This document shows positions 28,117 through 43,704 of a DNA stretch of 64,000 nt, piece by piece. The notes beneath the pieces are model-generated. The model was not told the DNA's origin. It did no database searches and saw only the letters and a program-made list of their open reading frames with translations. The stretch comes from Escherichia phage SP22, in sequence record LC519489.1; one strand, 5' to 3'. The position numbers and the translations under genes are program-made. Within the stretch, counting starts at the first letter, position 1. Each line of letters opens with the position of its first letter.

Positions 28117-28418
28117 TGGCAGTTTTAAATTGGTCTACAAATGAAGTAGATACTGATGGTAACCAGTTAAAAGTTTTACCACCACCGGAAGTTCAAGAGA
28201 CAGGTCTTTTAAAGGGTGAACCTATGGGTAGACAGTGGTTCAACTATATTATCAACTACCTGCTTAATAAAGTAAACGGCACTGTTGGTGAAGTTCGCTC
28301 ATATGCAACTGAGCAACCAGATTTAGTGGCTAATGGATGGAATCTGATTAAATCTGAGACAGGGACTGCATCAACAAGTACAGGAAACCTTTACACATAT
28401 GAATATGTAGGAGCTTAA
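28116..28418 (+). CDS. Hypothetical tail protein
   Basis: ORF track. Confidence 0.4.
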
Positions 28419-29596: not shown

Positions 29597-29642
29597 TTTC
29601 TTTACAGGGGTTTTGTAGCCCCTTTTAAGAGGAAAATTTATA

Positions 29643-32012
29643 ATGGCAGATTACAAATTGAGTCAATTAAACTCAATCGACACAATTCGTTCAGAAGACC
29701 TATTGCACATCAGAGTTAAGAAAAGACCTGAAATGTTGGGTGACGAAGACCGTAGAATGACCTATCAAGACTTCTTAGCTTCCTTCAAACTAGAAAGGTT
29801 TGTTCAGATTGCTGGGAGTACTATGACGGGAGACTTAGGTATTGTCAAGTTACTTTACGGTGGTAAGGCAGTATTTGACCCAACAGGCTCTTCTGAGATT
29901 ACTATTGGGGATATTTTAAAGACTTTTAAAATTAACTCAAATGGGCTTAAACTCACTATTGCAGATGCCACAAGGTCGGCAACTGTTTATCATACTTTGA
30001 ATAAACCAAGCCCTAATGAACTTGGTATGAGAACTAATGAAGAGAATGATGCAAGATATGCAAGGCTTGCTGTTACAAACACATTCTCTGGAACTCAGAA
30101 CATTCAAGGTGATGCTAACTTACTTCGTCTTAGAAACCAGAATGCAAATAATGCGCAATATATTGAGGGTGTGAACTTAGATGGTTCAGCTAGATGGTGG
30201 GTTGGTATTGGTAGTAATGGCTCTGATGAAGTAAAACTGTACAATAACAAATACAACTCAGCTTTGACTATTGCAAGCAATATCTCTGTTAATAAGTCTT
30301 TAGCAATCACTGGTCAAGTTCAACCTTCAGACTTCTCTAACTTAGATGCTAGATACTTCACTCAGACAGTTGCTAATCAGAGATTTGCACAGTTAGCTGG
30401 TAATAACACTTTTACAGGTGCTAACACATTTAGGACTATGAGTGTTATTTCAAATGCTGCTGCTATCACACTGCAATGTGCATCAGCAAACGAATCCCTG
30501 TATCTACTTGCAAAAGATTATGAAGGTGGAAACTTATGGTATCTTGGTAAAGGTAGTTCAGGTGCTGGTGTAACTATCTACAACTATACCACTAACACCT
30601 CTTTGGTCTTAGATGCTGCTGGGGTATCAGCAAATAAAAATGTCAGAATCACTGGTCAAGTTCAACCTTCAGATTGGGCTAACATTGACTCTAGATATAT
30701 TCCGGCAGCAACATTAAGCACGATTGCAAGAACTAATGCACAAAATACTTTTAATGGTGTACAGAAAGTTGTTACGGATGATGAAGCCCTAATTGTGAAA
30801 AACTCTACTCAGAACAGACCATTGTATATCCGTGGTGTGGACACTGCTAATGTTTCAAGATGGTGGGTAGGTGTTGGTGGGGCAGATACTAATGACGTGA
30901 CACTAAATAACAGTTTTTCTGGAACTCAGTTAGTTTTAGGTAACTCATCTGCAAGTATCAACAAAACACTAACTCTAACTGGACAGATTCAACCTTCAGA
31001 TTTCTCTAACTTAGATGCTAGATACTACGTTAAATCTGCAACAGATGCAAAGTACTTATGGTCATCAGCCAGAGCTTTGGTGGAGGAGTCTGATGGTGGT
31101 GTGGCTTGGAACCAACCTTCAGGAATTTATGCAGAGACTATCAATGGTGGTGGTTCAAGCCGTTTAGTCTTACACCTATTCGCTAATATGTTAGCATCAA
31201 CACCAACTGCACAATTAAGATTTGATTACAGGAATAGTGGTTTATGGTATAGAACAGCCAGAGATAGGTATGGTTTTGAGGCTGAATGGTCTAAGGTTTA
31301 CACTGAAGCTCAGAAACCAACACCTTCAGAAATTGGTGCATACACTAAAGCAGAGACTGACCAGAAGATTGCAGAGGCGATTAGTGACTCTACAGACCTG
31401 AATAAAATCTATCCAGTAGGTATTGTAACGTGGTTTAACAGTAATGTTAACCCTAATACAGCACTTCCTGGATTAACTTGGACGTACCTGAACAATGGTG
31501 TTGGTAGAACTATTAGAATTGCAGCAGCAAATGGTTCAGATGTTGCTACAACTGGTGGTTCAGACTCTGTAACGTTGTCTGTCGGTAACTTACCTTCACA
31601 TACACATAGCTTCTCTGCTACCACTTCATCATTTGATTATGGTACTAAGACAACAAATACGACTGGCAACCATGCTCATGATAGAGGTAACATGGAAATC
31701 TCTGGTGTGTTTGGTTGGTTCAGAAGTGACAATGGTGCATTTTACACTGCGAGTGGTGCGTTTGTGATGGGTAGTAGTCAGGCTTCACATGGCTTCACAG
31801 GCTCTAACTTCACTTACGGTGCTCCTGTTGATTTCCACGCGTCAAGAACTTGGACAGGTGTAACTAATACAACCGGTAACCACGCTCACAGCGTCGGTAT
31901 TGGTGCTCACAACCACACAGTTAGCGGTAACACTGGTGGTACAGGTTCTGGTTCAGCATTTAGTGTTACTAACCAGTTCTACAAGTTAATGGCTTGGGTG
32001 AGAACTGCTTAA
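29643..32012 (+). CDS. Long tail fibre protein with internal repeats and C-terminal His-x-His array
   Basis: Three copies of ITGQVQPSD(F/W)SNLD(A/S)RY; C-terminal NHAHSVGIGAHNHTV. Confidence 0.65.
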   Translation: MADYKLSQLNSIDTIRSEDLLHIRVKKRPEMLGDEDRRMTYQDFLASFKLERFVQIAGSTMTGDLGIVKLLYGGKAVFDPTGSSEITIGDILKTFKINSNGLKLTIADATRSATVYHTLNKPSPNELGMRTNEENDARYARLAVTNTFSGTQNIQGDANLLRLRNQNANNAQYIEGVNLDGSARWWVGIGSNGSDEVKLYNNKYNSALTIASNISVNKSLAITGQVQPSDFSNLDARYFTQTVANQRFAQLAGNNTFTGANTFRTMSVISNAAAITLQCASANESLYLLAKDYEGGNLWYLGKGSSGAGVTIYNYTTNTSLVLDAAGVSANKNVRITGQVQPSDWANIDSRYIPAATLSTIARTNAQNTFNGVQKVVTDDEALIVKNSTQNRPLYIRGVDTANVSRWWVGVGGADTNDVTLNNSFSGTQLVLGNSSASINKTLTLTGQIQPSDFSNLDARYYVKSATDAKYLWSSARALVEESDGGVAWNQPSGIYAETINGGGSSRLVLHLFANMLASTPTAQLRFDYRNSGLWYRTARDRYGFEAEWSKVYTEAQKPTPSEIGAYTKAETDQKIAEAISDSTDLNKIYPVGIVTWFNSNVNPNTALPGLTWTYLNNGVGRTIRIAAANGSDVATTGGSDSVTLSVGNLPSHTHSFSATTSSFDYGTKTTNTTGNHAHDRGNMEISGVFGWFRSDNGAFYTASGAFVMGSSQASHGFTGSNFTYGAPVDFHASRTWTGVTNTTGNHAHSVGIGAHNHTVSGNTGGTGSGSAFSVTNQFYKLMAWVRTA

Positions 32013-32091
32013 TCACTTGTTGACTGATTGTTAAGATGGTGTTAATATTCTTTATAGGTATTCTCACCATCTTGGCTGATGAGGTGATTAA

Positions 32092-32289
32092 ATGCCTACA
32101 ATCCTAGCAATTCTTCTAAAAAATCTAGGTAGCTTCTTCTGGAAACTCGTTTTATCCCTTCTAAGTGAATACATGATTGAGAAAGTGTTCTTCAGACTTG
32201 CAAGATATCTTGCGAGTAAAACAGATACACCTATTGATGATGAGTTCGTAGATAACTTAGAAAAAGCTTTTAAGGGGGAGAATAAATGA
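32092..32289 (+). CDS. Small hypothetical membrane protein
   Basis: Hydrophobic N-terminus; ORF track. Confidence 0.4.
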   Translation: MPTILAILLKNLGSFFWKLVLSLLSEYMIEKVFFRLARYLASKTDTPIDDEFVDNLEKAFKGENK

Positions 32290-32657
32290 AGTGGCTAGAG
32301 GAAGCTTTTAAAAATAATATTGGTGCAATTGTAGTTGGTATTTTTAGTGTTATTGGGATGTATACCACCATGCAAGTTTCGGATGGTAAGCAAGAAGTGT
32401 CTGTCACAACAAAGTTACAACAGCTAGATAATTATTCCAAAAGTAACTATTCAGCTATTCGTGATTTACAGTCTGACATGAGACTGATTCAGCTAGGGAT
32501 GGAGAACCAGAAAGTTCAGTTAGAGAATGTTAAGGGTGAGAATGCAAAACTTACCAAAACTCTTGATAAATTCTCTGACAGTGTGAACAATCTGGCTCAA
32601 TCAGTATCAGCCTTGCAAGCTATTACTGAAAAGAACACAAAGAATACTGAAAAATAA
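32286..32657 (+). CDS. Hypothetical membrane-anchored coiled-coil protein
   Basis: One hydrophobic segment then helical Gln/Lys-rich region. Confidence 0.4.
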   Translation: MKWLEEAFKNNIGAIVVGIFSVIGMYTTMQVSDGKQEVSVTTKLQQLDNYSKSNYSAIRDLQSDMRLIQLGMENQKVQLENVKGENAKLTKTLDKFSDSVNNLAQSVSALQAITEKNTKNTEK

Positions 32658-32664
32658 AATTTTA

Positions 32665-32692
32665 AGGCTCCCGTAAAAAGGAGCCTTTTTTG
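32665..32692. terminator. Bidirectional rho-independent terminator between convergent modules
   Basis: AGGCTCC-cgtaaaa-GGAGCCT hairpin flanked by A-run and T-run. Confidence 0.65.
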
Positions 32693-32694
32693 TT

Positions 32695-33594
32695 TTATTT
32701 ACCTACTGATAAAGGTGCTTCAATTTTTCCTGCATGTTGGTAATTATTAATACCACCGATAAAATCACTTGCAGTGAGATGTTTTAAGTCACTTAAAGTG
32801 TTAAGTGGGATACCAATCTCAAAAGTTGGTGCATGGAACTCTTCATTGTTCATCAGTTCATAAACCTGTTTCATATGGTTCTGATAAATCTGAGTATCTC
32901 CAAAGACTCCTATCAAGTACCGTGGAGTGTATCCAGTCATCTTACAAAGAACTTCCAGAATAAAGCCGTAAGATGCAATGTTAAATGGAAGTCCTAAAAA
33001 GGTGTCTACAGAACGCTGATACCATTGCAAATCTACTTCACCTTCATTAGTAATGTAAATCTGAAACAGAACATGACAAGGTGCTAAAGCCATTGAGTTT
33101 GCTGCGATATCTGCTGCATTCCAAGCATTAACAAGCATGTATCTGTCTGTGATATCACCCTTCATCTTCGTTACTAAGGTCTCTAGCTGGTCTACAACAC
33201 AACCGTTATGACCTTCAAAGTTTCTCCACTGAACTCCATAGATTCTCCCACCTGCATCCTCTAACCAATCTTGTTCAGAAGAATAATTAGAGCTTAACCA
33301 ACGTTTAAAATCATCTGACCAGATAGTCCAGCGTTCTCCGTCATTTTCATCCCAAGTACGGTAACGAAGTTCACCCAGCTTATTCTCACCATTCAGGAAC
33401 CATAAAGCCTCCCCAATAACTTGCCGTGTAAACACCTGTTTAGATGTTAAGAGCGGGAAACCAGTCCTCATATCAAAACGAAACTGAGGTGGAGCAAAAG
33501 CAGAGATAACATCTCCAGTTCGTGTAGTACGCAGTTCACCAACGGATAAAACATGGTTCAGGATATTTTTGTAACTTGTATCTGCTTGTGACAT
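32695..33594 (-). CDS. thyA: Thymidylate synthase
   Basis: Active-site ALAPCH motif; 299 aa. Confidence 0.85.
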   Translation of the reverse strand: MSQADTSYKNILNHVLSVGELRTTRTGDVISAFAPPQFRFDMRTGFPLLTSKQVFTRQVIGEALWFLNGENKLGELRYRTWDENDGERWTIWSDDFKRWLSSNYSSEQDWLEDAGGRIYGVQWRNFEGHNGCVVDQLETLVTKMKGDITDRYMLVNAWNAADIAANSMALAPCHVLFQIYITNEGEVDLQWYQRSVDTFLGLPFNIASYGFILEVLCKMTGYTPRYLIGVFGDTQIYQNHMKQVYELMNNEEFHAPTFEIGIPLNTLSDLKHLTASDFIGGINNYQHAGKIEAPLSVGK

Positions 33595-33595
33595 A

Positions 33596-34141
33596 TCAAA
33601 AGTGTCCTTTTACTTGTGGAACATAAATTTCAAAAGTTGCTTTACCATCCTCTGATGGTTTTGACTGTACCTTTGTAAACACACGGTTATCATACAGCTT
33701 CTCAAAGAAGTTTTCAAAAGGTAAATGCACAGTGGCCTCTTCAGTAACTTTATGGAAAACAGTATGGAACACCACACTAGCATACGGTAAAGCATTGACA
33801 AGGATATCTGCACCACCAATTACAAAGACATCTTCATCAATAGAGCTATCAAGATACTTCAAAAATGCTCCAAATGACTCTTTACTGGCTTTAGCATACA
33901 TTACATCATCTTTGCCAAAGTCTATGCCTAAGTATGGTACAGAATTTGTTAAGATGAGGTTTGCACGTTCTGGTAAAGGTTTACTACCCAGAGTCTTAAA
34001 AGTCTCATTACCCATGACTACTAAGTTATTTTTAGTGAGTCTCTTAAACTCTTGCATGTCCTGTTTATGTCGAGGCCACGGCATACCAGTCGGTGTACCA
34101 AATTCACCGTTTTCACCACTTGCAAATATTAGCTTAATCAT
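33596..34141 (-). CDS. Dihydrofolate reductase
   Basis: GMPWP and VVMGNETFKTLG motifs; adjacent to thyA. Confidence 0.75.
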   Translation of the reverse strand: MIKLIFASGENGEFGTPTGMPWPRHKQDMQEFKRLTKNNLVVMGNETFKTLGSKPLPERANLILTNSVPYLGIDFGKDDVMYAKASKESFGAFLKYLDSSIDEDVFVIGGADILVNALPYASVVFHTVFHKVTEEATVHLPFENFFEKLYDNRVFTKVQSKPSEDGKATFEIYVPQVKGHF

Positions 34142-34398
34142 TTTGTAAACCCTTTCTTAATGAACCAGTTAATAACATTCTTCACAGCTTTATTGCTGTG
34201 GTAGATTAAGTGTGGTGTAGGTTGGTATGAACCATAGGCCCAGAATGATAGATGCTCACCACAACCAACACATGTAGTACTTTCTTCAGCTATATGGCCA
34301 TTAACAATCACATGAACTTCACCTTGTAAGTCTGTACACCCACAATGTGGACATCGGATAGGTGTTCCGTCAGGCTCATAGCAGTGTTCAATTTTCAT
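34138..34398 (-). CDS. Zinc-ribbon protein
   Basis: CPHCGC ... CVGCGEH cysteine pairs. Confidence 0.45.
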   Translation of the reverse strand: MKIEHCYEPDGTPIRCPHCGCTDLQGEVHVIVNGHIAEESTTCVGCGEHLSFWAYGSYQPTPHLIYHSNKAVKNVINWFIKKGFTK

Positions 34399-34914
34399 TT
34401 ATTTAACCTCAAAAACTGGTTCAAGAACCAATATAAAGTCTACACAGTCATCTTCTTCATCCAGAATACCATCAAAGTTCTTAGGAACGAAGTCGAAGAG
34501 GCTCATCACAAAACAGTCAGAAGTAACCTTTATAGTTCCCCCCATGTTCTCTACAGTTAACACTGTACGACTTTCTTTTACCTCCCTCAGAAGATTACCC
34601 ACAAAGTCATCTAAGAAGTACTTCATCAATGACTTGAAACCTTTAGGGTAATCTGTACCAGAGTATGTTTCAATCTGAGGCACAAGCTTAACATTTATAC
34701 TAGTCTTTGTTAAGAATGCACTAGAGAACATACTATCAGGTAGCTTACAAACAGTCTTTCCAGTACCTTCATGTTCAATCTCAACAAAACCAGCTTCATC
34801 GCCACATGTAACTATTTTAAAAGATGCTTCATTCTCATACTGTGAAGCCATAAACTTTTTAAGCATCTCTTTAAGGAAGTCTGCATGAGCATCTTGTAAG
34901 AAGATATCAATCAT
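34399..34914 (-). CDS. Hypothetical protein
   Basis: ORF track. Confidence 0.45.
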   Translation of the reverse strand: MIDIFLQDAHADFLKEMLKKFMASQYENEASFKIVTCGDEAGFVEIEHEGTGKTVCKLPDSMFSSAFLTKTSINVKLVPQIETYSGTDYPKGFKSLMKYFLDDFVGNLLREVKESRTVLTVENMGGTIKVTSDCFVMSLFDFVPKNFDGILDEEDDCVDFILVLEPVFEVK

Positions 34915-34927
34915 AGTTAATCACCTA

Positions 34928-35287
34928 TTATGGGAACAAGCACTTAATGTCGTCGTTTTTGAAAACAAAACTCGTGTAGTTGTGACCATCAACATCCAAC
35001 CAAACAGCCTGAACATCTACACCGTCAAGATTATGGTAAAGCTCTTTGATGAAGTGGTCTTTTACAATCTGACTACTAGTGGTTTCCAGCTTAATGTTCG
35101 AGATTGCTGAACCTACAGCCATGTAGCCCATGACACGTTTCTTCTCAGTGTGCTTAATCTTACCATCTTTGTAAGCCATAATGAGATTGGAAAGAATTTT
35201 TACACCGTAGTACTTTTCAAGGTGAGTAGGTGCACCATAAAAGCCTAATGCGAAGTTTTCAGAGTGGATAATGTTTTCACGTTTCAT
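34928..35287 (-). CDS. Hypothetical protein
   Basis: ORF track. Confidence 0.45.
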   Translation of the reverse strand: MKRENIIHSENFALGFYGAPTHLEKYYGVKILSNLIMAYKDGKIKHTEKKRVMGYMAVGSAISNIKLETTSSQIVKDHFIKELYHNLDGVDVQAVWLDVDGHNYTSFVFKNDDIKCLFP

Positions 35288-35288
35288 A

Positions 35289-35618
35289 TTAATCTGCCAA
35301 CCTTAAATTGAAATTAACACCAAATTTTTCACACACTTCCAACATATACTCAAGAGAGACATTCCCAGTGAGGTGGATTATGTTGGATACACGAGCTTGA
35401 GAGATACCACAAATTTTAGCGACTTGTTCTTGAGAAAGACCTCTGGATTTAATCTCTCTCTTAAAACGATGTGCAACGAAGTCTCTCATTTCGTCTACAT
35501 CCATTGGACAAATATAACTCTCCATTTCAGCCTCTCTATCAGCCTCCCAATCATCTTGTGGAGCATAAGGGTCAAAAACCTCATTCATCTTTCTTCTTCC
35601 GTTTACGTGAAGTATCAA
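35289..35618 (-). CDS. Helix-turn-helix (XRE-like) DNA-binding protein
   Basis: LSQEQVAKICGISQARVSNI motif. Confidence 0.5.
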   Translation of the reverse strand: MILHVNGRRKMNEVFDPYAPQDDWEADREAEMESYICPMDVDEMRDFVAHRFKREIKSRGLSQEQVAKICGISQARVSNIIHLTGNVSLEYMLEVCEKFGVNFNLRLAD

Positions 35619-35793
35619 TTAATGAGTCTATGTTTGTAGCTCTGACCTTTTCACGTTCATCATTAAGATAATCATCAAGAGCCTTTTCAATCTGTGAATC
35701 ATCTTGACAGATGACTGTAAAGACTGTAAAGCCGTCTGTATCGTCAATTATCTTACCATAACCGCTTCTGGGATGTAACTTTTTAAGAGCCAT
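35581..35793 (-). CDS. Hypothetical protein
   Basis: ORF track. Confidence 0.35.
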   Translation of the reverse strand: MALKKLHPRSGYGKIIDDTDGFTVFTVICQDDSQIEKALDDYLNDEREKVRATNIDSLIDTSRKRKKKDE

Positions 35794-35794
35794 A

Positions 35795-36178
35795 TCAAAT
35801 ACCTGTGCAGCTTCTGTTTTCTAAGAAATACTCAACACCATACATAGCTTTTTGCATCAAATCTTCTTTAAACTGGATACGGTGGTTGAGCATCGCCTGT
35901 ACATCAATATCATCATGGTGCTTCTCTTTAATATTTGCAGATTGCAGGAAATACTCTGCAAGAACGCGATATTGATAGTCAGTCACCTTATCAGTCATCT
36001 CTGTCAAAGACTCTTCAGAAATTGGTTTTAGTAGCTCACCATTAGCTAGAGCAACACCTTTTACAATCTGACAAGTATCCTCTGGGACACCTGATAAGTT
36101 CACATTTGGCAGTTCTGTTGCATTGACTGGTAAATTCATTGCCATAATCATTGCAGCAGCTAATAAAATCTTTTTCAT
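35795..36178 (-). CDS. Secreted/periplasmic hypothetical protein
   Basis: Signal-peptide-like N-terminus MKKILLAAAMIMAMNLPVNA. Confidence 0.45.
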   Translation of the reverse strand: MKKILLAAAMIMAMNLPVNATELPNVNLSGVPEDTCQIVKGVALANGELLKPISEESLTEMTDKVTDYQYRVLAEYFLQSANIKEKHHDDIDVQAMLNHRIQFKEDLMQKAMYGVEYFLENRSCTGI

Positions 36179-36459
36179 AATGACCTCAAAGTTATATTAA
36201 ATTTTGTATTACGTTGAGTATAAAAATAAGCTATAACACCTGACTTGTCAACAGATTTTATAGCTTATTTGGCAGATTTTTTATAAGGCTACTGCCATCC
36301 TTCCATACCAGACTACACCATGCAAGACCAGACTTCACATCACCTTACCGTGCAATACATTACTTAAAAACCCTCTTAGAAGACTCTTAAGTGATGCTGG
36401 TGAGTACCTGTTGGTTTATGCTGCTCAGTATACTCACCAAATTTTCTATGTCAACAACT

Positions 36460-36606
36460 TTATATAAAAGCCCTGATAACTATATGTGTTACAAAACAGA
36501 AGATTGTGAACAAGACACCCATTGCAAAGGATGTGTTCAAAAGTTTACTTGTTATGTAAGATAACACAAAGACAACTAATGCAAACAGAATGATTGTGCT
36601 TAACAT
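36460..36606 (-). CDS. Small hydrophobic peptide (48 aa, two predicted membrane helices), not in ORF track
   Basis: Hand translation of minus strand: MLSTIILFALVVFVLSYITSKLLNTSFAMGVLFTIFCFVTHIVIRAFI. Confidence 0.3.
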   Translation of the reverse strand: MLSTIILFALVVFVLSYITSKLLNTSFAMGVLFTIFCFVTHIVIRAFI

Positions 36607-36609
36607 AGT

Positions 36610-37749
36610 TTACTCATAATCCCTAATAACTAGCCCAACAGGGAACTGTAAAGACCCTTTACGAGTCATCTTCTGGAACTGAACCGTTAAAGGTTTCCCG
36701 ATAAACTCATCAGGATGCTCAGCAAGGTACTGTTTCTTCTCATGAGTAGTCTTCCATGAGACATCTACAAAGACGTTAGGAAGAGTCTCTACAACGAACT
36801 TGCCATGACCACGTTTATCGGTCTTTACACCAGTCACTTTAAACTCTTCAGTGTGCATCTTCTTGTGCTTAATCAAGAAGTATGAACGGTGACCACACTC
36901 GTAGAAGGAGTCTTCAGAGATTGAACGGTACATTGCACCTTCAAACTTAGCTTCAACCCACTTATCATGAGCTTCATCAAACTCTTCCCAAGAATTTACA
37001 CGACGAGACTTAACAGGAACAACTTTACAGCCATCCCTGAAGTCATTCAATGGTGAAGTCTCAATGATATCTCTACGCTCAGGCCACGTCTTAGTACTGT
37101 CACAGATATCATACCAGTAAAACTTGAGTAGGTGTCTGTCAGGATTGTCTTCATTTTTAATCATGGAGACGATATCTTCTAAGTCCCACCCATGAGCATA
37201 AATCTCTCCATCAAATTCATCAACATCTTTGTGGAGCCTTAACATTACCATAATGTCAGGTATTAGTTCAGTAGGGATTTTGTAAACAGTATTCTCACGA
37301 GAATATGCTGTAAATACACTGCCAATACTCAAGTGCCTTGAAATCCTACAACGGACACCATCAAGTTTCGGTTGAGCATCAGCAGGGAACTTCAGATACT
37401 TTGCATGGCTAACCTTTGCAGCATCATGAGCAAGCTGTACACCTACCTTCTCGGTATTCTGTGCAGACTCTTTTGTGTAAGCATAACCTTTGCGGTCAAC
37501 CTGCTTTTTATACTTTGCAGCAACTTCAAAGAGAGCTTGCTGTTCAGCGTTACGCTCATTCTTTTTACCGATGTTTTTAGGTTCTGCTGTATACTCTTCA
37601 AACATCATCTTGCCATTTTCTTTACCATACGTGGTAACAACTTTGTCACCTACAGCAACACATGACCAGACGTTGAAGGAGCCATCTTTATTTTGTTTGT
37701 ACAGAATTGTCATTTTTAACCTCTGAATGATACCAAGTATAACAAGCAT
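36610..37749 (-). CDS. ATP-dependent DNA ligase
   Basis: Adenylation KxDG motif (PKLDGVRC); 379 aa. Confidence 0.7.
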   Translation of the reverse strand: MLVILGIIQRLKMTILYKQNKDGSFNVWSCVAVGDKVVTTYGKENGKMMFEEYTAEPKNIGKKNERNAEQQALFEVAAKYKKQVDRKGYAYTKESAQNTEKVGVQLAHDAAKVSHAKYLKFPADAQPKLDGVRCRISRHLSIGSVFTAYSRENTVYKIPTELIPDIMVMLRLHKDVDEFDGEIYAHGWDLEDIVSMIKNEDNPDRHLLKFYWYDICDSTKTWPERRDIIETSPLNDFRDGCKVVPVKSRRVNSWEEFDEAHDKWVEAKFEGAMYRSISEDSFYECGHRSYFLIKHKKMHTEEFKVTGVKTDKRGHGKFVVETLPNVFVDVSWKTTHEKKQYLAEHPDEFIGKPLTVQFQKMTRKGSLQFPVGLVIRDYE

Positions 37750-37906
37750 TACATGCGTAAAGCTCTAAGTCATTTTTATCTGGTTTATGGAAACAGTTTG
37801 ACCCACAACGACACCGGAATAGCTTACCATCAACACGAAGAATGAATGTTTCAAGCTCACCATCTTCTGTAAGAACTGCGTTCTTAAATTTATCTTCTAC
37901 AGTCAT
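37688..37906 (-). CDS. Small zinc-finger protein
   Basis: CRCGSNC ... CNAC cysteine pairs. Confidence 0.4.
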   Translation of the reverse strand: MTVEDKFKNAVLTEDGELETFILRVDGKLFRCRCGSNCFHKPDKNDLELYACNACYTWYHSEVKNDNSVQTK

Positions 37907-38208
37907 TTTCTCTTACCACCAATCTCTACGTCGATAACCTGAACATCACCAGCAACATCAAACTTATGGATGATGCTTTCCACAGTGTAAGTCCAACCCT
38001 CGATGCGAACCAACTCACCTTCTCGTGGGACGATTGGGTTACGTTGAGCTACGGTTGTAGTGGAGTGAACAACATCATAACAATAGATATAGTTTACTAG
38101 GACTTCCATCGTGAAAACCTCACTCAATAACCGTAGTGTGTGATTGACCATTTTTCCCATAACTATAAGATGTTGTTGTTTGAGAGTTTGGACATCTGAC
38201 AACAACAA
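37903..38208 (-). CDS. Hypothetical protein
   Basis: ORF track. Confidence 0.4.
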   Translation of the reverse strand: MLLSDVQTLKQQHLIVMGKMVNHTLRLLSEVFTMEVLVNYIYCYDVVHSTTTVAQRNPIVPREGELVRIEGWTYTVESIIHKFDVAGDVQVIDVEIGGKRK

Positions 38209-38377
38209 TATCTCTGCTTATGGCATCACCATGTAACTTATAGACTTTGCAATCTTGCATCTCTGGTGGGAGGCTATAAGAAGCGTTTTTGTCCTCGTAA
38301 GAGGGGTTGCAGCCAGATAGAAAAATTACTCCAAGTGCAACCATTGCTTTCACACAACTCTTAACCTTATTGTTCAC
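38120..38377 (-). CDS. Small lipoprotein (putative)
   Basis: Signal peptide ending in lipobox-like LSGC. Confidence 0.4.
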   Translation of the reverse strand: MNNKVKSCVKAMVALGVIFLSGCNPSYEDKNASYSLPPEMQDCKVYKLHGDAISRDIVVVRCPNSQTTTSYSYGKNGQSHTTVIE

Positions 38378-38509
38378 GATAGTCTACCTCTCTGTATGTT
38401 TTTAAATAGTGAGTAATGAGTTCTGGTAATTCACTACGTTTAACGTTTGAACGAAGAAGTGTCCAGTCAAAACCTTTACCAACCCTTCCCCAGAGACTGT
38501 ACATTTTCT

Positions 38510-38743
38510 TCATAGCAACTCCAGAATATCAATACGCTCGCCTTTGAGTACTCCAGTACGGTCTTTTGCAATCTTACCTTCAACAATAAGAATGTGTGTA
38601 GACCTTAAAGTGTCGCTGTTAAAGGTTTTTACGAACCTACTAGGCATGACTACAATGCACATCTCCTGAATCAACTCTGGAGTATAGCAGTTGTCGTGAA
38701 GTTGCTGAATAACGTCTGCAAGTGTCATTTTTGATGCCTCCAA
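38510..38743 (-). CDS. Hypothetical protein
   Basis: ORF track. Confidence 0.4.
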   Translation of the reverse strand: MEASKMTLADVIQQLHDNCYTPELIQEMCIVVMPSRFVKTFNSDTLRSTHILIVEGKIAKDRTGVLKGERIDILELL

Positions 38744-38934
38744 TACTCAATATCAATAAGTTCTTGTGCAATGCTTTTAAGGTTACCTTTCAAGAAAAAC
38801 TTCTCAGAACCTGAAAGAGATGAATTGTCAATTAACCTGTTCATCCTCTCAAACAACTTCTGCTTACGATTCTTGATAGTCTCTTTTGAAGCACCTTTCA
38901 TCATCGCTGCATGGGTTCTTCCACGGTGGCTCAT
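38725..38934 (-). CDS. Hypothetical protein
   Basis: ORF track. Confidence 0.35.
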   Translation of the reverse strand: MSHRGRTHAAMMKGASKETIKNRKQKLFERMNRLIDNSSLSGSEKFFLKGNLKSIAQELIDIEYWRHQK

Positions 38935-38985
38935 AAGCCCTCCTATATAAGATATAGTATAAGGTACTCTTCCATGAGCACCTTG

Positions 38986-39552
38986 TCAACTTAGTTTTGC
39001 AAACTCTCCGTGGAGTTTAATAGCAGCTTCACAGTAAGCTTTATGGGCTTCTTCAGGCGTGTCATAGTAACCTAATGACATCTTTTTACCTTTATAGCTT
39101 ATTTGCGCAACCCACCTACCAGACTTCTTCTTCAGGCTTACACCTTTATAGCCTGATTTATTGGTGGATAGTTTGCTTTTATTCCAAGCACTTTGGCAGT
39201 CATCTGCTTCTCTTAAGTTTACAACCCTGTTATCAAGAGAGTCCCCATTAATATGGTCAATAACACCTTTCGGTAGCCTACCATACACGTACAGCCATGC
39301 GAGTCTGTGTGCTTTATGTGCTTTCTTGTCAAAATAGATAGTAATCTGCTTATGACCAGTTGAGTCAATCTGGATGCTCCCCGCTACCTGTCCGGCGTAC
39401 TTACTATTAAAGACTTTAACAGCCCTTGAGTCACCATCTCTACGAAGCCAAGTAAAGACCCCTGTTTCGGGGTCATAGTGTAGTAGTTCCTTTAAACGTT
39501 CTTGTGTAATCATTTTGTCACCATTAATGCACTTCCAACCACGATTTACCAA
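38986..39552 (-). CDS. HNH homing endonuclease with AP2-type DNA-binding domain
   Basis: HNH motif IDHINGDSLDNRVVNLR plus AP2-like YKGVSLKKKSGRWVAQISYKGKKMSLGYYDTPEEA; overlaps 3' end of polymerase gene. Confidence 0.6.
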   Translation of the reverse strand: MVNRGWKCINGDKMITQERLKELLHYDPETGVFTWLRRDGDSRAVKVFNSKYAGQVAGSIQIDSTGHKQITIYFDKKAHKAHRLAWLYVYGRLPKGVIDHINGDSLDNRVVNLREADDCQSAWNKSKLSTNKSGYKGVSLKKKSGRWVAQISYKGKKMSLGYYDTPEEAHKAYCEAAIKLHGEFAKLS

Positions 39553-42253
39553 CCTTACCAGTACCAGTTACCAGTGTTTCACTCTTTAGTCCTAAGTTCT
39601 TAGAGGCTTGCCCGTAATACCAATCAGTGACAGCCTTCACCTCTGCCGTCATACTTTCTGGACATTCCCAACTTGTCTCGTCGTGATAGGAGCACAATAA
39701 ACGAGCACCTATAGCTGGTTTACGACCGTTCAACTTCATCAAACCTTCGTCAATCATACGACGGCAAGCAAGGTTAATTGCCTCGTTCTGAATCTGACTT
39801 TCCGAACCCATGAGCAAATAATTCAACAGTTTGTGTGGAGATTTACACCACAACCAAGCTCCAGCAACCTTTACAAAACCTCCTTTAGAGATTGCAGCAG
39901 TCTTACCAAACACCTCTTCAAGTGCCTTTTTAGTTGCTTTGTAGTCAGCTTCCAAGTCATCTAGCAGCTTCTTAATTTTAGGCAAACGAATAAAGTAAGT
40001 CTGTTTAGTCAGCGCACCTTCCTGAGTAGTTGCAGCTTTAATCGTCTTAGCAAACTTCTCATCCCCTGCACCGAACAGTAGTGCATAGATACCATTCTTA
40101 GCTTTCTTACGACCTTTACTAATCTCATGAAGAAGATTCTCATCCTGCGTTGCACGACAAGTCAAGATATCCTGCTCATCATTCAAGCTAAAGTAAATAC
40201 TGTTCAGTGTGTGTGCATCAGTCCCTGAATAGACAACGTATAGGTCATTCTCAGAGTCATAGCGAAGGTACTTATCAATCTCTGGGTTGAGGTACTCATC
40301 AAAGTGTTTGCAGTAATAGCGTCCATCTTCTTGACGAATGAACTCAATTTCTTCTTTACCTTGCGTTACCGCTTTGGTGAAGTCTTTATCACCCATAAAG
40401 TTACAAAGAAGAACTAGCTGGGCTGAGTTCATATCTACAGAGACAACGTTAGTACCTTCCTCACAAATCCACACTGCCCTCATTGGTTCCCCATAGACAG
40501 CAGCACCAGACGGTACGTTTACAATACCATATTGTGTCATACGTCCAGTTGAAGTACCAAACACCATTGCACCAGCACTAAGGCGACCATCAGGACGAAT
40601 CTGGTTCAACCAACCTTTTTCATCATCCTTTGAGTTCTCAATAGTTCTGCGTCGGTGCATCAAAGTATAGTACTTAGCAATCTTCTGTCCAAGCTCACCT
40701 TCAATCGTATCATAAGATGATTCAGTAAGTTTTGGTGAAGTACGGATTAAGCAAGGCTCAAGCAAATCTGTGTACTTCTTCACAGACCAGTTATGCTCAA
40801 TGTACTGTACACCTTCATGTTCAACATAGCTCAAACCACACTGCTCAACCATTTCCTGCCACTTAGGATGTTTTGTAATCATCTTTTTATTGTCTTTGAA
40901 ACGACAAACTTTGACAGGGCGACCGTCTGAGTCTTTCTTGTAGTTCCAGTCATCTGGAATCCAACCAACTGATTTCAAGTAGTCTTTAACAACTGCTACC
41001 TGAGTCATACGAGAAACTTCAAAATCAATTGGTGTATATGGTGCATCAATCAAACCTGTGTAGCGACTTGACTCAAGTTCAAAGTGGTTAACAACGTGAC
41101 TGTTATAGTACTTCACAGTTTTGACTGTTTTCACTGGCTTCCAGTCTTTGCATTTCTTACCAATCTTTGCATTCAACTCATTGCAAATTGCACGAGCATC
41201 CTTCATTGCTACAAAGCCTTCCTTGTACTCTTCACCAGTTACAGAGTTGGTTGGTGTATAGCAATTTCTCTTTTCAATGTTAAAAATCTTTGTAGTTGGC
41301 TTACCAAATGGTTTGATTTCGTATGTCTGCATCTCACCGTTACGCACCTGTTGACGGTACTTCGTCTTAGGATACTTGGTGATTCTCTTCAACCCATCTG
41401 CATGACCAAATGTTTCAACATACTCATTCCAAGCCTTTGCAAACTCTTCACCAGTTACTTTACCTTTGGTCTTAATAGTTGGAGGTAGATGTGGTTCAAC
41501 CTCTGAAGCAAGCTCATTAGTCAACTTGTCAAGTTCCTTTACATGGAACTCCATAAGCTCTTTATCAGCTTTCCAACCATTGATAGCTTGCTGGCTCATC
41601 CAGAAAGATGTTTCTTTAGCTCGCATGTAGGTTTCATAAGTATCTATGCCACACTTCTTAAGCTTGAGATACTCATTATCAAGTGCTCGTTTAGTTTTGG
41701 CGTTAATACGAATATCTTCTACAACACGGGTGAAGATTTCTGCATTCCACACACCCCAATGCTCAATCTCTGGCTTACGAACACCGACACGAGCACCCCA
41801 TGCAGCCAAACCATGAGCACCTTTATAACCCTTTGGAGTTGGTCTATCCATCCACTGAACACGAGACTGGATAAGAGAATCCTGAAAGAAATTACTCCAC
41901 GGCTTACATTTTGGATTATCAAAGTTCCATAAATCCGGTGCAATGTGATTGAAGACCCACCAGTCATAACCGAGGCCGTTATGGATACAAAGTCGTTTTG
42001 CCTTTAACGCAAACTCAACACCTTCACGTAAACCACCCTTAATGTACTTAGTGTACTTGTGACCGAGGATAGGTTCATCTGTAAAGACCCATACAGGTGG
42101 CTCTTCATCGTCAGATTTATAATCTGCGAAAGCCATTACGTGAACTTTAGTGAACTCAAGGAGTAAACCATCAGTTTCTGTATCACCAACTAAATGTAAG
42201 TTTTTAAAATCTACGTTTTCCATTTTTACTCCCTCTAAAATCATTAACCTCAT
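39524..42253 (-). CDS. DNA polymerase, family A (Pol I-like) with 3'-5' exonuclease domain
   Basis: Exo I VGDTETDGL; motif A DMNSAQLVLL; motif B RKKAKNGIYALLFGAG; motif C YHDE. Confidence 0.85.
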   Translation of the reverse strand: MRLMILEGVKMENVDFKNLHLVGDTETDGLLLEFTKVHVMAFADYKSDDEEPPVWVFTDEPILGHKYTKYIKGGLREGVEFALKAKRLCIHNGLGYDWWVFNHIAPDLWNFDNPKCKPWSNFFQDSLIQSRVQWMDRPTPKGYKGAHGLAAWGARVGVRKPEIEHWGVWNAEIFTRVVEDIRINAKTKRALDNEYLKLKKCGIDTYETYMRAKETSFWMSQQAINGWKADKELMEFHVKELDKLTNELASEVEPHLPPTIKTKGKVTGEEFAKAWNEYVETFGHADGLKRITKYPKTKYRQQVRNGEMQTYEIKPFGKPTTKIFNIEKRNCYTPTNSVTGEEYKEGFVAMKDARAICNELNAKIGKKCKDWKPVKTVKTVKYYNSHVVNHFELESSRYTGLIDAPYTPIDFEVSRMTQVAVVKDYLKSVGWIPDDWNYKKDSDGRPVKVCRFKDNKKMITKHPKWQEMVEQCGLSYVEHEGVQYIEHNWSVKKYTDLLEPCLIRTSPKLTESSYDTIEGELGQKIAKYYTLMHRRRTIENSKDDEKGWLNQIRPDGRLSAGAMVFGTSTGRMTQYGIVNVPSGAAVYGEPMRAVWICEEGTNVVSVDMNSAQLVLLCNFMGDKDFTKAVTQGKEEIEFIRQEDGRYYCKHFDEYLNPEIDKYLRYDSENDLYVVYSGTDAHTLNSIYFSLNDEQDILTCRATQDENLLHEISKGRKKAKNGIYALLFGAGDEKFAKTIKAATTQEGALTKQTYFIRLPKIKKLLDDLEADYKATKKALEEVFGKTAAISKGGFVKVAGAWLWCKSPHKLLNYLLMGSESQIQNEAINLACRRMIDEGLMKLNGRKPAIGARLLCSYHDETSWECPESMTAEVKAVTDWYYGQASKNLGLKSETLVTGTGKVGKSWLEVH

Positions 42254-42282
42254 ACATTACTGCAAAAAATTATAAAAAGCAA

Positions 42283-42307
42283 GTTGACAATGTACTTGAC
42301 AAGGTGT
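42283..42307 (+). promoter_or_regulatory. Second copy of conserved element GTTGACAAtGTACTTGACAAGGTGT at head of plus-strand early block
   Basis: 24/25 identical to 94-118; lies in the divergent region between polymerase and the 42480 operon. Confidence 0.4.
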
Positions 42308-42479
42308 TAATCTTTGCGAAGTGGGTTTTACTTAAAAGGTTACTTAACAGTTTAACTATACAGATACTTTAAAACTCTTAAAAGATTATTTAATAGCTTT
42401 TAAAAAGCTTTAAAGTATAACGTATAGAATACGTTAAGATAAAAGATTAAAACTTAATAGTTACTTAAAAGAGGCTTAC

Positions 42480-42902
42480 ATGCAGAAAATGTTTGTTCAC
42501 CCAGACATAGCTGACTTTGTTAGAGCTTTGCAGAAGTTGGAAGAACTTGACATTGCTGCTCAACGGGAATATGCTCACCATCACAGGAGAATGGTTGATA
42601 TACAACATGAAATAGAGTTGTCTGAAAACTATGAAGATGACTTAAAATGCTCTGTATTTGAGCATATGAAAGATGTTGCTACAGCGAGACGTAAAGCTAA
42701 AGACACAGTTGCTTTACTAGATTCTCTTAAAAAGAGGTTGCAAAGTGGTACAGACCTGTGTAATCTAGCGTCACTGATTAATGATGTTGAAACTTCTTGG
42801 GATAGACATTACTATCCACGTTCTGAAAAGACACTTGACTTTTCTTCATCCGAAAACTTAAAATGTTCTAGAAAGAAACTTAACCAACTGAGAGAGAAAT
42901 AA
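42480..42902 (+). CDS. Hypothetical early protein
   Basis: First ORF after conserved element. Confidence 0.45.
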   Translation: MQKMFVHPDIADFVRALQKLEELDIAAQREYAHHHRRMVDIQHEIELSENYEDDLKCSVFEHMKDVATARRKAKDTVALLDSLKKRLQSGTDLCNLASLINDVETSWDRHYYPRSEKTLDFSSSENLKCSRKKLNQLREK

Positions 42903-42903
42903 T

Positions 42904-43704
42904 ATGAATATCGATGTAGAAAAGATGCTTGAAGAGAAAGGTGTTGATGAAGCATTCTTAATCAATGCCGTAGAAAGCATGGCTATGATTCTTCGTGGTA
43001 ACAACTACACAGAACAGTTTATGCCTGCAAGCTATAACTTGCCTGAAGACAAGTCTGATAACGGTGCTTTTGCAGAACAGGTCAACATGATGTTAACAGA
43101 CACTACACTTGCTCTGGCATCTATTGCGGTTGGTGTTGATGCACTTGCTGAGTTCATTTTTTATGAAATGCAAAAGAATGACTATATCAGGATGTCAGAC
43201 GAAGATAAGGAACTGTTGCTGACTAAGGACACTGATTTCATTATTGATACGCTTATCTCATCAACGAGTGCTGTTATGGCTGTTCTTGAGAAGCGTATGG
43301 AAGAGAAACTTTCACGATATGAAAAACTTGATTGGGGCGTAGAAGAATTAAACCCACGAATCAAAGAGATTATCCAGCAAACTAAAGAGTCTTTGGAAGA
43401 AGCTGTTGAAAATGACTCTGTAGCTGACATTGAACCACTTCAGGTGAAAGTTGCACTGATGATTCCAGCTATCTCTACGATGATGAATATCGTTGCACTA
43501 ATCCAACTGTCACAGATGATGGGTGTGAGTATTGAGTTCATTGAGGAAATGACTGGTGGCGTTAGTATGCAAGCAATCAATGATGTTCTGGTGAATATTG
43601 GTGCTTCAATCATTGAAGAGAAGCTACGCATTAACTTCGGTGATGATTTTGTGAAGCAAATCTCAGCTATGGCTGAAAAAGAGTCTGCTGACCAACTGCA
43701 CTAA
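42904..43704 (+). CDS. Hypothetical acidic early protein
   Basis: Asp/Glu-rich; ORF track. Confidence 0.45.
   Translation: MNIDVEKMLEEKGVDEAFLINAVESMAMILRGNNYTEQFMPASYNLPEDKSDNGAFAEQVNMMLTDTTLALASIAVGVDALAEFIFYEMQKNDYIRMSDEDKELLLTKDTDFIIDTLISSTSAVMAVLEKRMEEKLSRYEKLDWGVEELNPRIKEIIQQTKESLEEAVENDSVADIEPLQVKVALMIPAISTMMNIVALIQLSQMMGVSIEFIEEMTGGVSMQAINDVLVNIGASIIEEKLRINFGDDFVKQISAMAEKESADQLH

What the first reader, a model, noticed from the sequence alone, without database searches (positions are those of the whole stretch)
35795..38377. Early-region secreted protein, lipoprotein and unannotated 48-aa membrane peptide
The minus-strand early block encodes a signal-peptide protein (35795-36178), a lipobox-containing small protein (38120-38377) and a hydrophobic 48-aa peptide (36460-36606) missing from the ORF track. 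Small phage lipoproteins and membrane peptides are classic superinfection-exclusion or receptor-masking factors.
Basis: inference. Interest (0 to 1): 0.4.

Follow-up and report, generated by a model that had tools for sequence, protein, structure and literature searches.

The report
Small envelope proteins of a Felixounavirus
A Felix O1-like phage encodes three small proteins that are real, conserved, unrelated to each other and aimed at the host cell envelope (one secreted, one membrane peptide, one lipoprotein), but nothing links them to any known superinfection-exclusion protein, and receptor masking is unlikely for the lipoprotein.

Summary
The window is a Felixounavirus (about 94% nucleotide identity to known phages). 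All three ORFs exist as described and are under purifying selection (dN/dS 0.06-0.12).

- **A (35795-36178):** a Sec-signal, two-cysteine, all-alpha periplasmic protein. It is core to Felixounavirus and Mooglevirus, is found nowhere else, and has its own strong sigma70-like promoter.
- **B (36460-36606):** a 48-aa two-TM peptide in a hypervariable slot after the ligase gene. It occurs in about a third of relatives and is already annotated in some of them (bas63_0038; phrog_22006).
- **C (38120-38377):** a lipoprotein (LSGC, Cys23) of a widespread family (phrog_902). The family has three invariant cysteines and occurs in unrelated virulent phages of Entero-, Vibrio-, Aeromonas- and Acinetobacter hosts.

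None shows detectable homology to T5 Llp, T4 Spackle, RI or Imm, or to spanins.

Llp-style receptor masking is disfavoured for C. These phages use LPS, C is not next to the tail-fibre genes, and its family spans phages with unrelated receptors and varies at the +2 sorting residue.

Published Bas63 knockout data show a fitness cost for the C orthologue and near-neutrality for A.

Verdict: real accessory envelope proteins with unproven function. Exclusion remains a reasonable hypothesis for A and B. Interest is modest.

The parts
35795..36178 (-). Gene A: 127-aa pre-protein. After cleavage it gives a 107-aa acidic (pI 4.7), all-alpha periplasmic protein with two invariant Cys (C36, C124). phrog_4332.
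   Evidence: (secondary structure only)
36119..36178 (-). Sec signal peptide of A (residues 1-20, predicted cleavage VNA|TE).
   Evidence: Read directly from the sequence. An AxA-type site is conserved in divergent orthologues.
36460..36606 (-). Gene B: 48-aa two-TM inner-membrane peptide with a conserved SKLL loop. phrog_22006. Its start lies 4 nt after the ligase stop codon.
38120..38377 (-). Gene C: 85-aa prolipoprotein (alternative GTG start at 38353 gives 77 aa). The mature form is a 63-aa lipoprotein with Asn at +2, a C43-C62 cysteine pair and the motif VVVRCPNSQTTT. phrog_902 family.
38309..38377 (-). Lipoprotein signal peptide plus the lipobox Cys23 codon (38309-38311) of C.
   Evidence: 27 of 89 family members hit Pfam LPAM_1.
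36427..36454 (-). Promoter-like site P1 (TTGACA-16-TATACT, 11/12), directly after B. It overlaps a 9-bp perfect inverted repeat (36398-36406 / 36431-36439).
   Evidence: Compensatory arm changes are seen in L018 and L019.
36223..36251 (-). Promoter-like site P2 (TTGACA-17-TATTTT, 10/12), 45 nt upstream of A. It is embedded in a 19-nt inverted repeat (36224-36242 / 36252-36270).
   Evidence: A promoter is annotated at the same place in phage ASO1A.

Best explanation
These are three unrelated, independently inherited accessory proteins that the phage sends to the envelope of the infected cell. They are not one system.

A is exported by Sec, cleaved, and probably disulfide-bonded in the periplasm. 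It is transcribed from its own sigma70-type promoter at the head of an operon that also contains an HTH regulator. I infer that it binds a periplasmic target to protect or condition the infected cell. Exclusion of, or tolerance to, secondary phage attack is the leading guess.

B inserts in the inner membrane as a two-helix hairpin. It is a swappable cargo gene in a hypervariable slot.

C is lipidated at Cys23 and tethered in the periplasm. In this phage the Asn at +2 predicts the outer-membrane inner leaflet. C folds into a small disulfide-stapled beta-sheet. I infer that it binds a conserved envelope component of Gammaproteobacteria rather than the phage's own receptor, and that it acts within the infected cell itself (envelope integrity, timing of lysis or yield).

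Shown: gene reality, targeting signals, family distribution, and lack of homology to known factors.
Inferred: localisation, disulfides, timing and all functions.
For: - All three genes are real and under purifying selection.
- Targeting signals are conserved across divergent orthologues. In 120 members of the C family, about 110 have a canonical lipobox and 89 have exactly two mature Cys. The lipobox Cys and these two are invariant in the 89-sequence alignment.
- The genes are independent. In 31 related loci A occurs in 31, B in 9 and C in 23, in all combinations. C has no conserved neighbours in distant phages.
- Both B and C sit in variable slots. In C-less relatives the C slot holds other small genes, including a Tad2-like ORF. 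The B slot alternatively holds a 62-aa basic ORF or nothing.
- C-family members occur in Ounavirinae, Vequintavirinae, Demerecviridae-type Vibrio phages, Straboviridae of Aeromonas and jumbo Eneladusvirus. They always lie among small genes; replication or nucleotide-metabolism genes flank most of the six loci, and none has an annotated tail-fibre gene nearby.
- The +2 residue varies across the family (D 27, E 25, N 17, S 16, T 11). This argues that periplasmic tethering, not a particular membrane face, is what is conserved.
- Bas63 knockouts: gene 42 (the C orthologue) scores -0.6 to -1.55 in three hosts. Gene 37 (A) scores about 0.
- The best promoter-like sites flank the B/A junction.
Against: - No direct evidence for localisation, disulfides, expression time or any phenotype of this phage's genes.
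- The negative Bas63 score for gene 42 may reflect disturbed expression of the essential downstream genes 41-39. The neighbouring genes 41 and 43 are also mildly negative. C is also naturally absent from 8 of 31 relatives, which fits badly with an important cell-autonomous role.
- The C model has only medium confidence (pLDDT 65), and the A model failed (pLDDT 38).
- The Enterobacterial +2 rule may not apply to all hosts of the family.
Confidence: 0.45

Rival explanations
1. One reading: the lipoprotein C (and perhaps A and B) is a superinfection-exclusion or receptor-masking factor of the Llp/Cor/Rtp45 type. It would bind the periplasmic face of the phage's outer-membrane receptor and so prevent adsorption of further phages and of progeny to debris.
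For: C is a small lipoprotein with an Asn at +2 (predicted outer-membrane sorting) and a cysteine pair, like T5 Llp. hhalign aligns 34 columns with Llp, including a P-x-D/E-I/L-x-C-x-x-Y stretch after the lipobox. Known SE lipoproteins act this way (PMC9586334; PMC12685063).
Against: - Felixounaviruses use LPS, not a protein receptor (PMC8594841).
- C is about 6 kb from the tail-fibre genes (28421-32012) and on the opposite strand.
- The mature domain is conserved across phages of many hosts with unrelated receptor-binding proteins.
- A quarter of the family has Asp at +2.
- The Bas63 knockout is costly in pooled lab infections, which a shared-benefit anti-debris function would not predict.
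Confidence: 0.15
2. The genes are lysis-related. C would be an o-spanin-like lipoprotein. A would be a periplasmic antiholin (T4 RI-like) acting on the single-TM holin-like protein at 32286-32657. B would be a holin or antiholin-type membrane peptide that sets lysis timing.
For: The phage has rII-type genes and a 123-aa type-II membrane protein labelled holin in Bas63. RI is also a small, early, periplasmic helical protein (PDB 6psk). A lysis-timing defect could explain the fitness cost of the C-orthologue knockout.
Against: - Separate i-spanin and o-spanin genes exist elsewhere in the genus (Bas63 genes 89/90; PMC8300805).
- C has no adjacent i-spanin gene and is not proline-rich.
- A shows no similarity to RI (probability 0.2%).
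- All three lie in the replication block, not with the lysis genes.
Confidence: 0.12
3. The genes are counter-defence proteins. One or more of them would neutralise an envelope-associated host or prophage defence (membrane Abi or exclusion systems) rather than excluding other phages.
For: In relatives the C slot alternates with a Tad2-like (anti-Thoeris) ORF. Such variable slots often hold anti-defence cargo. A is highly conserved yet near-neutral on lab strains, as expected of a conditionally useful gene.
Against: The Tad2-like match is just below the Pfam cut-off (24.7 vs 25 bits). There is no PADLOC or other match for A, B or C. Genes 37 and 42 are not mentioned anywhere in the PhageMaP main text, including its defence-screen section; the defence table itself was not read.
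Confidence: 0.15
4. One or more of the ORFs, B above all, is a chance hydrophobic ORF and not a gene.
For: Short hydrophobic ORFs arise in wrong frames of this AT-rich genome. B has only a weak Shine-Dalgarno sequence (GAG). Many depositors leave it unannotated.
Against: B has dN/dS 0.12 with dS up to 0.9 and a third-position excess of changes. Its length and two-TM layout are kept at about 40% identity in Moogle-type phages. It is positioned for translational coupling to the ligase gene.
Confidence: 0.03

Closest known systems
T5 Llp (lytic conversion lipoprotein) and the SE lipoproteins Cor and Rtp45
   Same: Like C, these are small (about 6-7 kDa mature) phage lipoproteins that carry a lipobox and act in the periplasm. 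Llp also has a cysteine pair, and it is made soon after infection by a virulent phage.
   Different: - No credible homology in sequence or fold.
- Those genes target the phage's own protein receptor (FhuA, LptD) (PMC9586334; PMC12685063). C belongs to an LPS-binding myovirus and lies in the replication block.
- The C family spans many phage groups with unrelated receptors.
T4 Spackle (Sp, gp61.3)
   Same: Like A, it is a small, early, Sec-exported, helical periplasmic protein with two cysteines in the mature part. It is non-essential in the laboratory.
   Different: Only the signal peptides align (probability 16%). Spackle inhibits the gp5 tail lysozyme (PMC7677548). No peptidoglycan-hydrolase domain was found in this phage's tail or baseplate ORFs, and none is mentioned in the Bas63 virion structure paper.
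T4 Imm (Imm_superinfect)
   Same: Like B, it is a small inner-membrane protein with two hydrophobic segments encoded by a virulent myovirus (from my own knowledge of T4).
   Different: B is 48 aa against 83 aa (Imm length from my own knowledge) and has no Pfam hit to any family above noise, PF14373 (Imm; accession recalled from memory) included. B is present in only about a third of relatives.
o-spanins (Rz1 family)
   Same: Like C, a small phage-encoded outer-membrane lipoprotein with cysteines.
   Different: C has no partner i-spanin gene, is not proline-rich and lies in the replication block. The genus has its own spanin pair elsewhere.
T4-type PeSL (promoter-early stem-loop) cassettes flanking hyperplastic regions
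   Same: The slot holding B is bounded by sigma70-like promoters embedded in inverted repeats. Its content varies between relatives.
   Different: The PeSL comparison is recalled from memory, not tested. The sequences are unrelated to T4, and recombination at these repeats is not shown.

Membership tests
Bacterial-type lipoproteins (SPase II substrates) | A positively charged n-region, an uncharged hydrophobic h-region and a lipobox [LVI][ASTVI][GAS]C within about 15-35 residues of the start. | tested here: met
   C has K4/K6/K10, AMVALGVIF and LSGC with Cys23. It is the only ORF in the window that passes the rule. About 110 of 120 family members have a lipobox. 27 of 89 members hit Pfam LPAM_1.
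Bacterial-type lipoproteins (SPase II substrates) | Actual lipid modification (globomycin sensitivity, palmitate labelling). | not testable with these tools
   Requires an experiment.
T5 Llp / SE lipoproteins | Sequence or profile homology to Llp. | tested here: inconclusive
   hhalign gives probability 85% but over only 34 columns, mostly the signal peptide and lipobox plus a short Cys-containing stretch. The C-family profile finds no Llp or Rtp45 chain in the PDB at E<=10.
T5 Llp / SE lipoproteins | Shared fold with Llp (PDB 7qjf, 8a60). | tested here: not met
T5 Llp / SE lipoproteins | A cognate outer-membrane protein receptor used by the same phage. The SE gene beside the receptor-binding-protein gene is typical, recalled from memory, not checked. 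| tested here: not met
   The receptor is LPS in this genus (PMC8594841). C is about 6 kb from the tail-fibre genes and on the other strand. None of the six distant homologue loci fetched has an annotated tail-fibre gene nearby.
T5 Llp / SE lipoproteins | An exclusion phenotype on expression. | not testable with these tools
   Requires plating and adsorption assays.
o-spanin (Rz1-like) | The gene is embedded in, overlapping or adjacent to an i-spanin gene in the lysis cassette. | tested here: not met
   The neighbours of C are small cytoplasmic-type ORFs in the replication operon. Bas63 has its i-spanin and o-spanin as genes 89/90.
T4 Spackle | Homology to Spackle (PDB 6x6o). | tested here: not met
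   hhalign probability is 16%, signal peptide only. The A profile finds no Spackle chain in the PDB at E<=10.
T4 Spackle | A tail-associated lysozyme target in the same phage group. | tested here: not met
   No PG-hydrolase Pfam domain in the nine largest ORFs between 20426 and 29596 (tape measure to proximal tail-fibre gene; the 100-aa ORF 28116-28418 was not scanned). Caveat: three of them (325, 139 and 284 aa, including the 325-aa ORF labelled baseplate hub in Bas63) have no Pfam hit at all.
T4 RI antiholin | Homology to RI (PDB 6psk). | tested here: not met
   hhalign probability is 0.2%.
T4 Imm (Pfam Imm_superinfect) | A match to the family model. | tested here: not met
   B's only Pfam hit at E<=1 is a noise-level DUF2929 match.
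PHROG families phrog_4332 (A), phrog_22006 (B), phrog_902 (C) | A significant full-length match to the family HMM. | tested here: met
   E-values are 7e-67, 7e-29 and 1.7e-17. All three families are of unknown function.
Pfam PF16225 | A match to the Pfam model. | tested here: inconclusive
   The precomputed label PF16225 is attached to nearly all C-family proteins. None of 89 members hits it in the local Pfam-A copy at E<=1.

The most novel reading that the evidence does not exclude
The C family (phrog_902) would be a previously uncharacterised, widespread class of disulfide-stapled periplasmic lipoproteins. Unrelated virulent phages of Gammaproteobacteria (Felix O1-like, rV5-like, T5-like Vibrio phages, T4-like Aeromonas phages, jumbo phages) would use it to act on one conserved envelope machine, for example LPS or lipoprotein transport, BAM or Tol-Pal. 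That would give either a receptor-independent form of superinfection exclusion or envelope stabilisation needed for full phage yield.
Probability: 0.2. Interest if true: 0.6.

Novelty: new variant of a known kind. Interest (0 to 1): 0.3.

Why it matters
If the function of the lipoprotein family were found, it would explain a gene shared by hundreds of therapeutic-candidate phages (Felix O1-like, rV5-like, jumbo and Vibrio phages). It might also reveal a conserved envelope vulnerability of Gram-negative bacteria. Known exclusion lipoproteins (Llp, Rtp45) have already served as structural probes of FhuA and LptDE. A and B are narrower: genus-level accessory genes relevant to phage-phage competition and cocktail design. 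As it stands, the finding is an ordinary set of hypothetical envelope proteins with one useful lead.

Tried and rejected
- **Structure of A.** Only four near-identical homologues were allowed into the alignment, and the model failed (pLDDT 38.5), so no fold search was done for A.
- **Homologues of A.** A phmmer scan of 1.84 billion representative proteins found 5 clusters, 3 of them full-length relatives at 32-34% identity. tblastn against phages finds A only in Felixounavirus- and Mooglevirus-type records.
- **Library searches.** Pfam, NCBIfam and PADLOC gave nothing meaningful for A, B or C.
- **PF16225.** The precomputed label on the C family could not be reproduced.
- **Rfam.** A scan of 35000-39000 gave no hits. 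TRF found no formal tandem repeat in the intergenic region.
- **Conserved neighbours of C in distant phages.** None found.
- **Ligase dN/dS.** My value is unreliable (implausibly high; cause not traced) and is not used.
- **Literature.**
  - No paper links Felixounavirus to a phage-encoded lipoprotein or to exclusion.
  - The HIDEN-SEQ paper does not cover this genus.
  - The PhageMaP main text never discusses genes 37, 38 or 42.
  - The DH10B sheet and the defence-screen table of PhageMaP were not read.
Full report
**Identity of the window.** The 3.3-kb stretch around the finding matches 259 phage records at 80-99% nucleotide identity. Nearly all are Felixounavirus (Felix O1-like myoviruses of Escherichia, Salmonella, Shigella) or related Citrobacter and Shigella phages. 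The best matches are about 94-95% identical. GC skew shows a minus-strand block from about 32.7 to 42.3 kb. That block encodes thymidylate synthase, DHFR, an HTH regulator, DNA ligase, a homing endonuclease and DNA polymerase. The finding lies inside it.

All three ORFs are at the stated coordinates.
- A (35795-36178, 127 aa) starts MKK-ILLAAAMIMAMNL-PVNA|TE, a textbook Sec signal. The mature 107-aa protein is acidic (pI 4.7) with two cysteines.
- C (38120-38377, 85 aa, GTG start overlapping the upstream ORF by 11 nt) has a lysine-rich n-region, an uncharged hydrophobic core and the lipobox L-S-G-C. The Cys23 codon is at 38309-38311. A second GTG at 38353 would give a 77-aa form that aligns with the 78-aa orthologues. 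Either start gives a valid lipoprotein signal.
- Among all 1753 start/ORF combinations of the window, only this ORF passes a strict lipoprotein rule.
- B (36460-36606, 48 aa) has two hydrophobic segments. It starts 4 nt after the ligase stop codon.

**All three are real genes.** I fetched 29 related IMG/VR loci with the ligase protein and added two GenBank loci.
- A is present in 31 of 31 loci, C in 23 and B in 9.
- Against close relatives, median dN/dS is 0.057 for A, 0.123 for B and 0.088 for C. Synonymous divergence reaches 0.9.
- For B, differences fall 49:14:92 on codon positions 1, 2 and 3.
- Moogle-type orthologues of B are about 40% identical. They keep the length, both hydrophobic helices and the SKLL loop.
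- B is therefore a gene, although hydrophobic short ORFs also arise by chance in this genome.
- B is not truly unannotated. It is a CDS in Bas63, VpaE1, Ro111lw and others, it is unannotated in many more, and it matches the 48-position phrog_22006.

**Protein A.**
- tblastn finds A in 258 phage records, essentially every record that matches the region. It is 95-100% identical within Felixounavirus and 30-35% identical in Mooglevirus-type phages.
- A full HMMER scan of 1.84 billion representative proteins found only five clusters, three of them full-length relatives at 32-34% identity. A is thus a lineage-restricted core gene.
- The AxA-type cleavage site, C36, C124 and the GEL.KP motif are invariant.
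- Structure prediction failed for lack of allowed diverse sequences (pLDDT 38.5). Only an all-helical secondary structure can be read.
- A profile of A hits nothing in the PDB.
- It aligns to T4 Spackle only over the signal peptide (probability 16%) and not at all to the T4 RI antiholin (0.2%). I checked both reference sequences against the PDB.
- A sits 45 nt downstream of a TTGACA-17-TATTTT site. It heads an operon with a 70-aa ORF and an HTH regulator.

**Protein B and its slot.** The ligase-to-A interval ranges from 88 to 2138 bp in relatives.
- Directly after the ligase gene there is B, or a basic cysteine-rich 62-aa ORF (phrog_5428), or nothing.
- Many genomes add a 1.5-kb insert with 200-aa and 146-aa ORFs of unknown function.
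- B is therefore swappable cargo.
- B has no match in Pfam, Imm_superinfect included, nor in NCBIfam or PADLOC.

**Protein C belongs to a large family.**
- C matches phrog_902.
- tblastn finds it in 599 phage records, of which 403 are below 60% identity. These include Eneladusvirus jumbo phages of Yersinia, Serratia and Erwinia, other >300-kb jumbo phages of Escherichia and Salmonella, Vequintavirinae of Klebsiella and Acinetobacter, about 114-kb Vibrio phages and Demerecviridae (JSF12), and Aeromonas Straboviridae.
- A profile search returned 174 proteins.
- In an 89-sequence alignment the only invariant columns are the lipid-attachment Cys and two further Cys. The nearly invariant motif is Y-x-LP-x-EL-x-DC ... 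VVRCPNS-x-T.
- Of 120 members, about 110 have a canonical lipobox and 89 have exactly two mature cysteines. 27 of 89 hit Pfam LPAM_1.
- AlphaFold2 gives a medium-confidence model (mean pLDDT 65; 70-78 in the mature domain). It is a five-stranded antiparallel sheet, with C43 at the start of one strand and C62 just after the next.
- hhalign against T5 Llp aligns 34 columns. These are mostly signal peptide plus a short Cys-containing stretch, which I regard as inconclusive.
- In every distant phage examined, the gene lies among small hypothetical genes. Replication or nucleotide-metabolism genes flank most loci, and none has an annotated tail-fibre gene nearby. It shares no neighbours with the window.

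**Why receptor masking is unlikely for C.**
- Known exclusion lipoproteins (Llp, Rtp45, Cor) bind the periplasmic face of the phage's own protein receptor (PMC9586334; PMC12685063).
- Felixounaviruses recognise LPS, not a protein (PMC8594841).
- C is about 6 kb from the tail-fibre genes, on the other strand.
- Its mature domain is conserved across phages with unrelated receptors.
- The +2 sorting residue varies across the family (Asp 27, Glu 25, Asn 17, Ser 16, Thr 11). By the Enterobacterial rule, different members would then sit in different membranes. This suggests that tethering in the periplasm is what matters.
- C is not an o-spanin. It has no i-spanin partner, and the genus has a separate spanin pair (Bas63 genes 89/90).
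- A Spackle-like role for A lacks its target. No peptidoglycan-hydrolase domain was found in the tail and baseplate ORFs scanned, and the Bas63 virion paper mentions none.

**Experimental data from a close relative.** Bas63 (JohannRWettstein) carries all three genes: bas63_0037 is A, 0038 is B and 0042 is C. In the PhageMaP barcoded-knockout screen (bioRxiv 10.1101/2024.10.10.617714, supplementary file 3), scores below 0 lie on the 'essential' side.

| Gene | S17 | MG1655 | BW25113 |
|---|---|---|---|
| 42 (C) | -0.59 / -0.79 / -0.78 | -1.02 / -1.13 / -1.35 | -1.55 / -0.92 / -0.83 |
| 37 (A) | -0.41 / 0.08 / -0.08 | 0.08 / -0.08 / -0.09 | -0.01 / 0.32 / 0.25 |

- Gene 38 (B) was not measured.
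- The authors state that DNA-level insertions avoid polar effects.
- However, genes 41 and 43 are also mildly negative, gene 40 is strongly essential, and C is naturally missing from 8 of 31 relatives. In those relatives other small ORFs fill the slot, one of them Tad2-like at E = 3.5e-5, just under the Pfam cut-off. A cis effect on downstream genes therefore cannot be excluded.
- A's profile, highly conserved yet near-neutral on lab strains, is what one expects of a conditionally useful competition or defence gene such as T4 sp or imm.

**Conclusion.**
- The three genes are unrelated, independently inherited accessory envelope proteins, not one system.
In its receptor-masking form it is disfavoured for C.
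- My best estimate is that C binds a conserved envelope component and acts within the infected cell itself.
- None of the three is a member of any characterised family. All are already catalogued as PHROGs of unknown function.
- Interest is modest. The one lead worth following is the breadth of the C family together with the Bas63 fitness signal.

Noticed in passing
window 36179-36459 (minus strand): The B-to-A intergenic region holds the two best sigma70-like promoters in the 11.5 kb scanned (32000-43500). Each is embedded in an inverted repeat: a 9-bp perfect repeat at 36398-36406 / 36431-36439 overlapping the -10 of P1, and a 19-nt repeat at 36224-36242 / 36252-36270 around the -35 of P2. 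In Moogle-like loci L018 and L019 the P1 arms differ in sequence but stay complementary. This resembles the T4-type promoter-early stem-loop cassettes that flank hyperplastic regions (comparison from memory). The RNA fold z-score is -2.8.
   Followed up: partly
window 36290-36390; loci L007, L013, L030, L031 (ligase-to-A interval): Between P1 and P2 there is a hairpin followed by a U-run (CTTAAGAGTCTTCTAAGAGGGTTTTT), annotated as a terminator in phage ASO1A. It is followed by a G/T-rich degenerate stretch (GGTAAGGT..., GGTCTGGT...) whose length and sequence vary greatly between relatives. TRF does not call it a tandem repeat.
   Followed up: partly
ligase-to-A interval of related loci, e.g. 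L005:5677-6722, L015:5104-5292: This is a hypervariable slot of 88-2138 bp. Its alternative cargo is a basic cysteine-rich 62-aa ORF (phrog_5428) and a 1.5-kb insert with 200-aa (phrog_4652) and 146-aa (phrog_5926) ORFs of unknown function. The insert and the 62-aa ORF are absent from the window.
   Followed up: partly
L016:3376-3603 and L020 (slot equivalent to window 38120-38377): In Moogle-like relatives that lack the lipoprotein, the same slot holds a 75-aa ORF with a Tad2-like (anti-Thoeris) N-terminal match: PF11195, E = 3.5e-5, 24.7 bits against a cut-off of 25. Other relatives carry an unrelated 84-aa ORF there.
   Followed up: partly
window 37688-37906 and 36610-37749: A 72-aa Cys-rich (CxC...CxxC, zinc-ribbon-like) ORF overlaps the annotated ligase start by 62 nt. 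Most relatives' ligase matches begin at residue 12-13, so the true ligase start is probably the ATG at 37713. In Bas63 the small ORF (gene 40, labelled 'DNA ligase*') is among the most essential genes (-2 to -3.4), more so than the ligase itself.
   Followed up: no
window 38986-39552 and 39524-42253: The 188-aa ORF annotated as an HNH homing endonuclease in relatives overlaps the 3' end of the DNA polymerase gene by 29 nt. Relatives have different or no endonuclease ORFs here. Several GenBank records list two 'DNA ligase' features under the match, which hints at mobile-element activity in this block.
   Followed up: no
window 32092-32657 and 32664-32687: At the end of the late tail-fibre operon lie a 65-aa membrane ORF (phrog_402) and a 123-aa type-II membrane, coiled-coil ORF (phrog_4038, labelled 'holin*' in the Bas63 screen, fitness -1.2 to -1.7). 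A bidirectional GC-rich terminator follows, shared with the convergent thymidylate synthase gene.
   Followed up: partly
C-family proteins P0001-P0124: The protein database's precomputed Pfam label PF16225 is attached to almost all family members. None of 89 members matches that model in the local Pfam-A copy at E<=1. The discrepancy is unexplained.
   Followed up: yes
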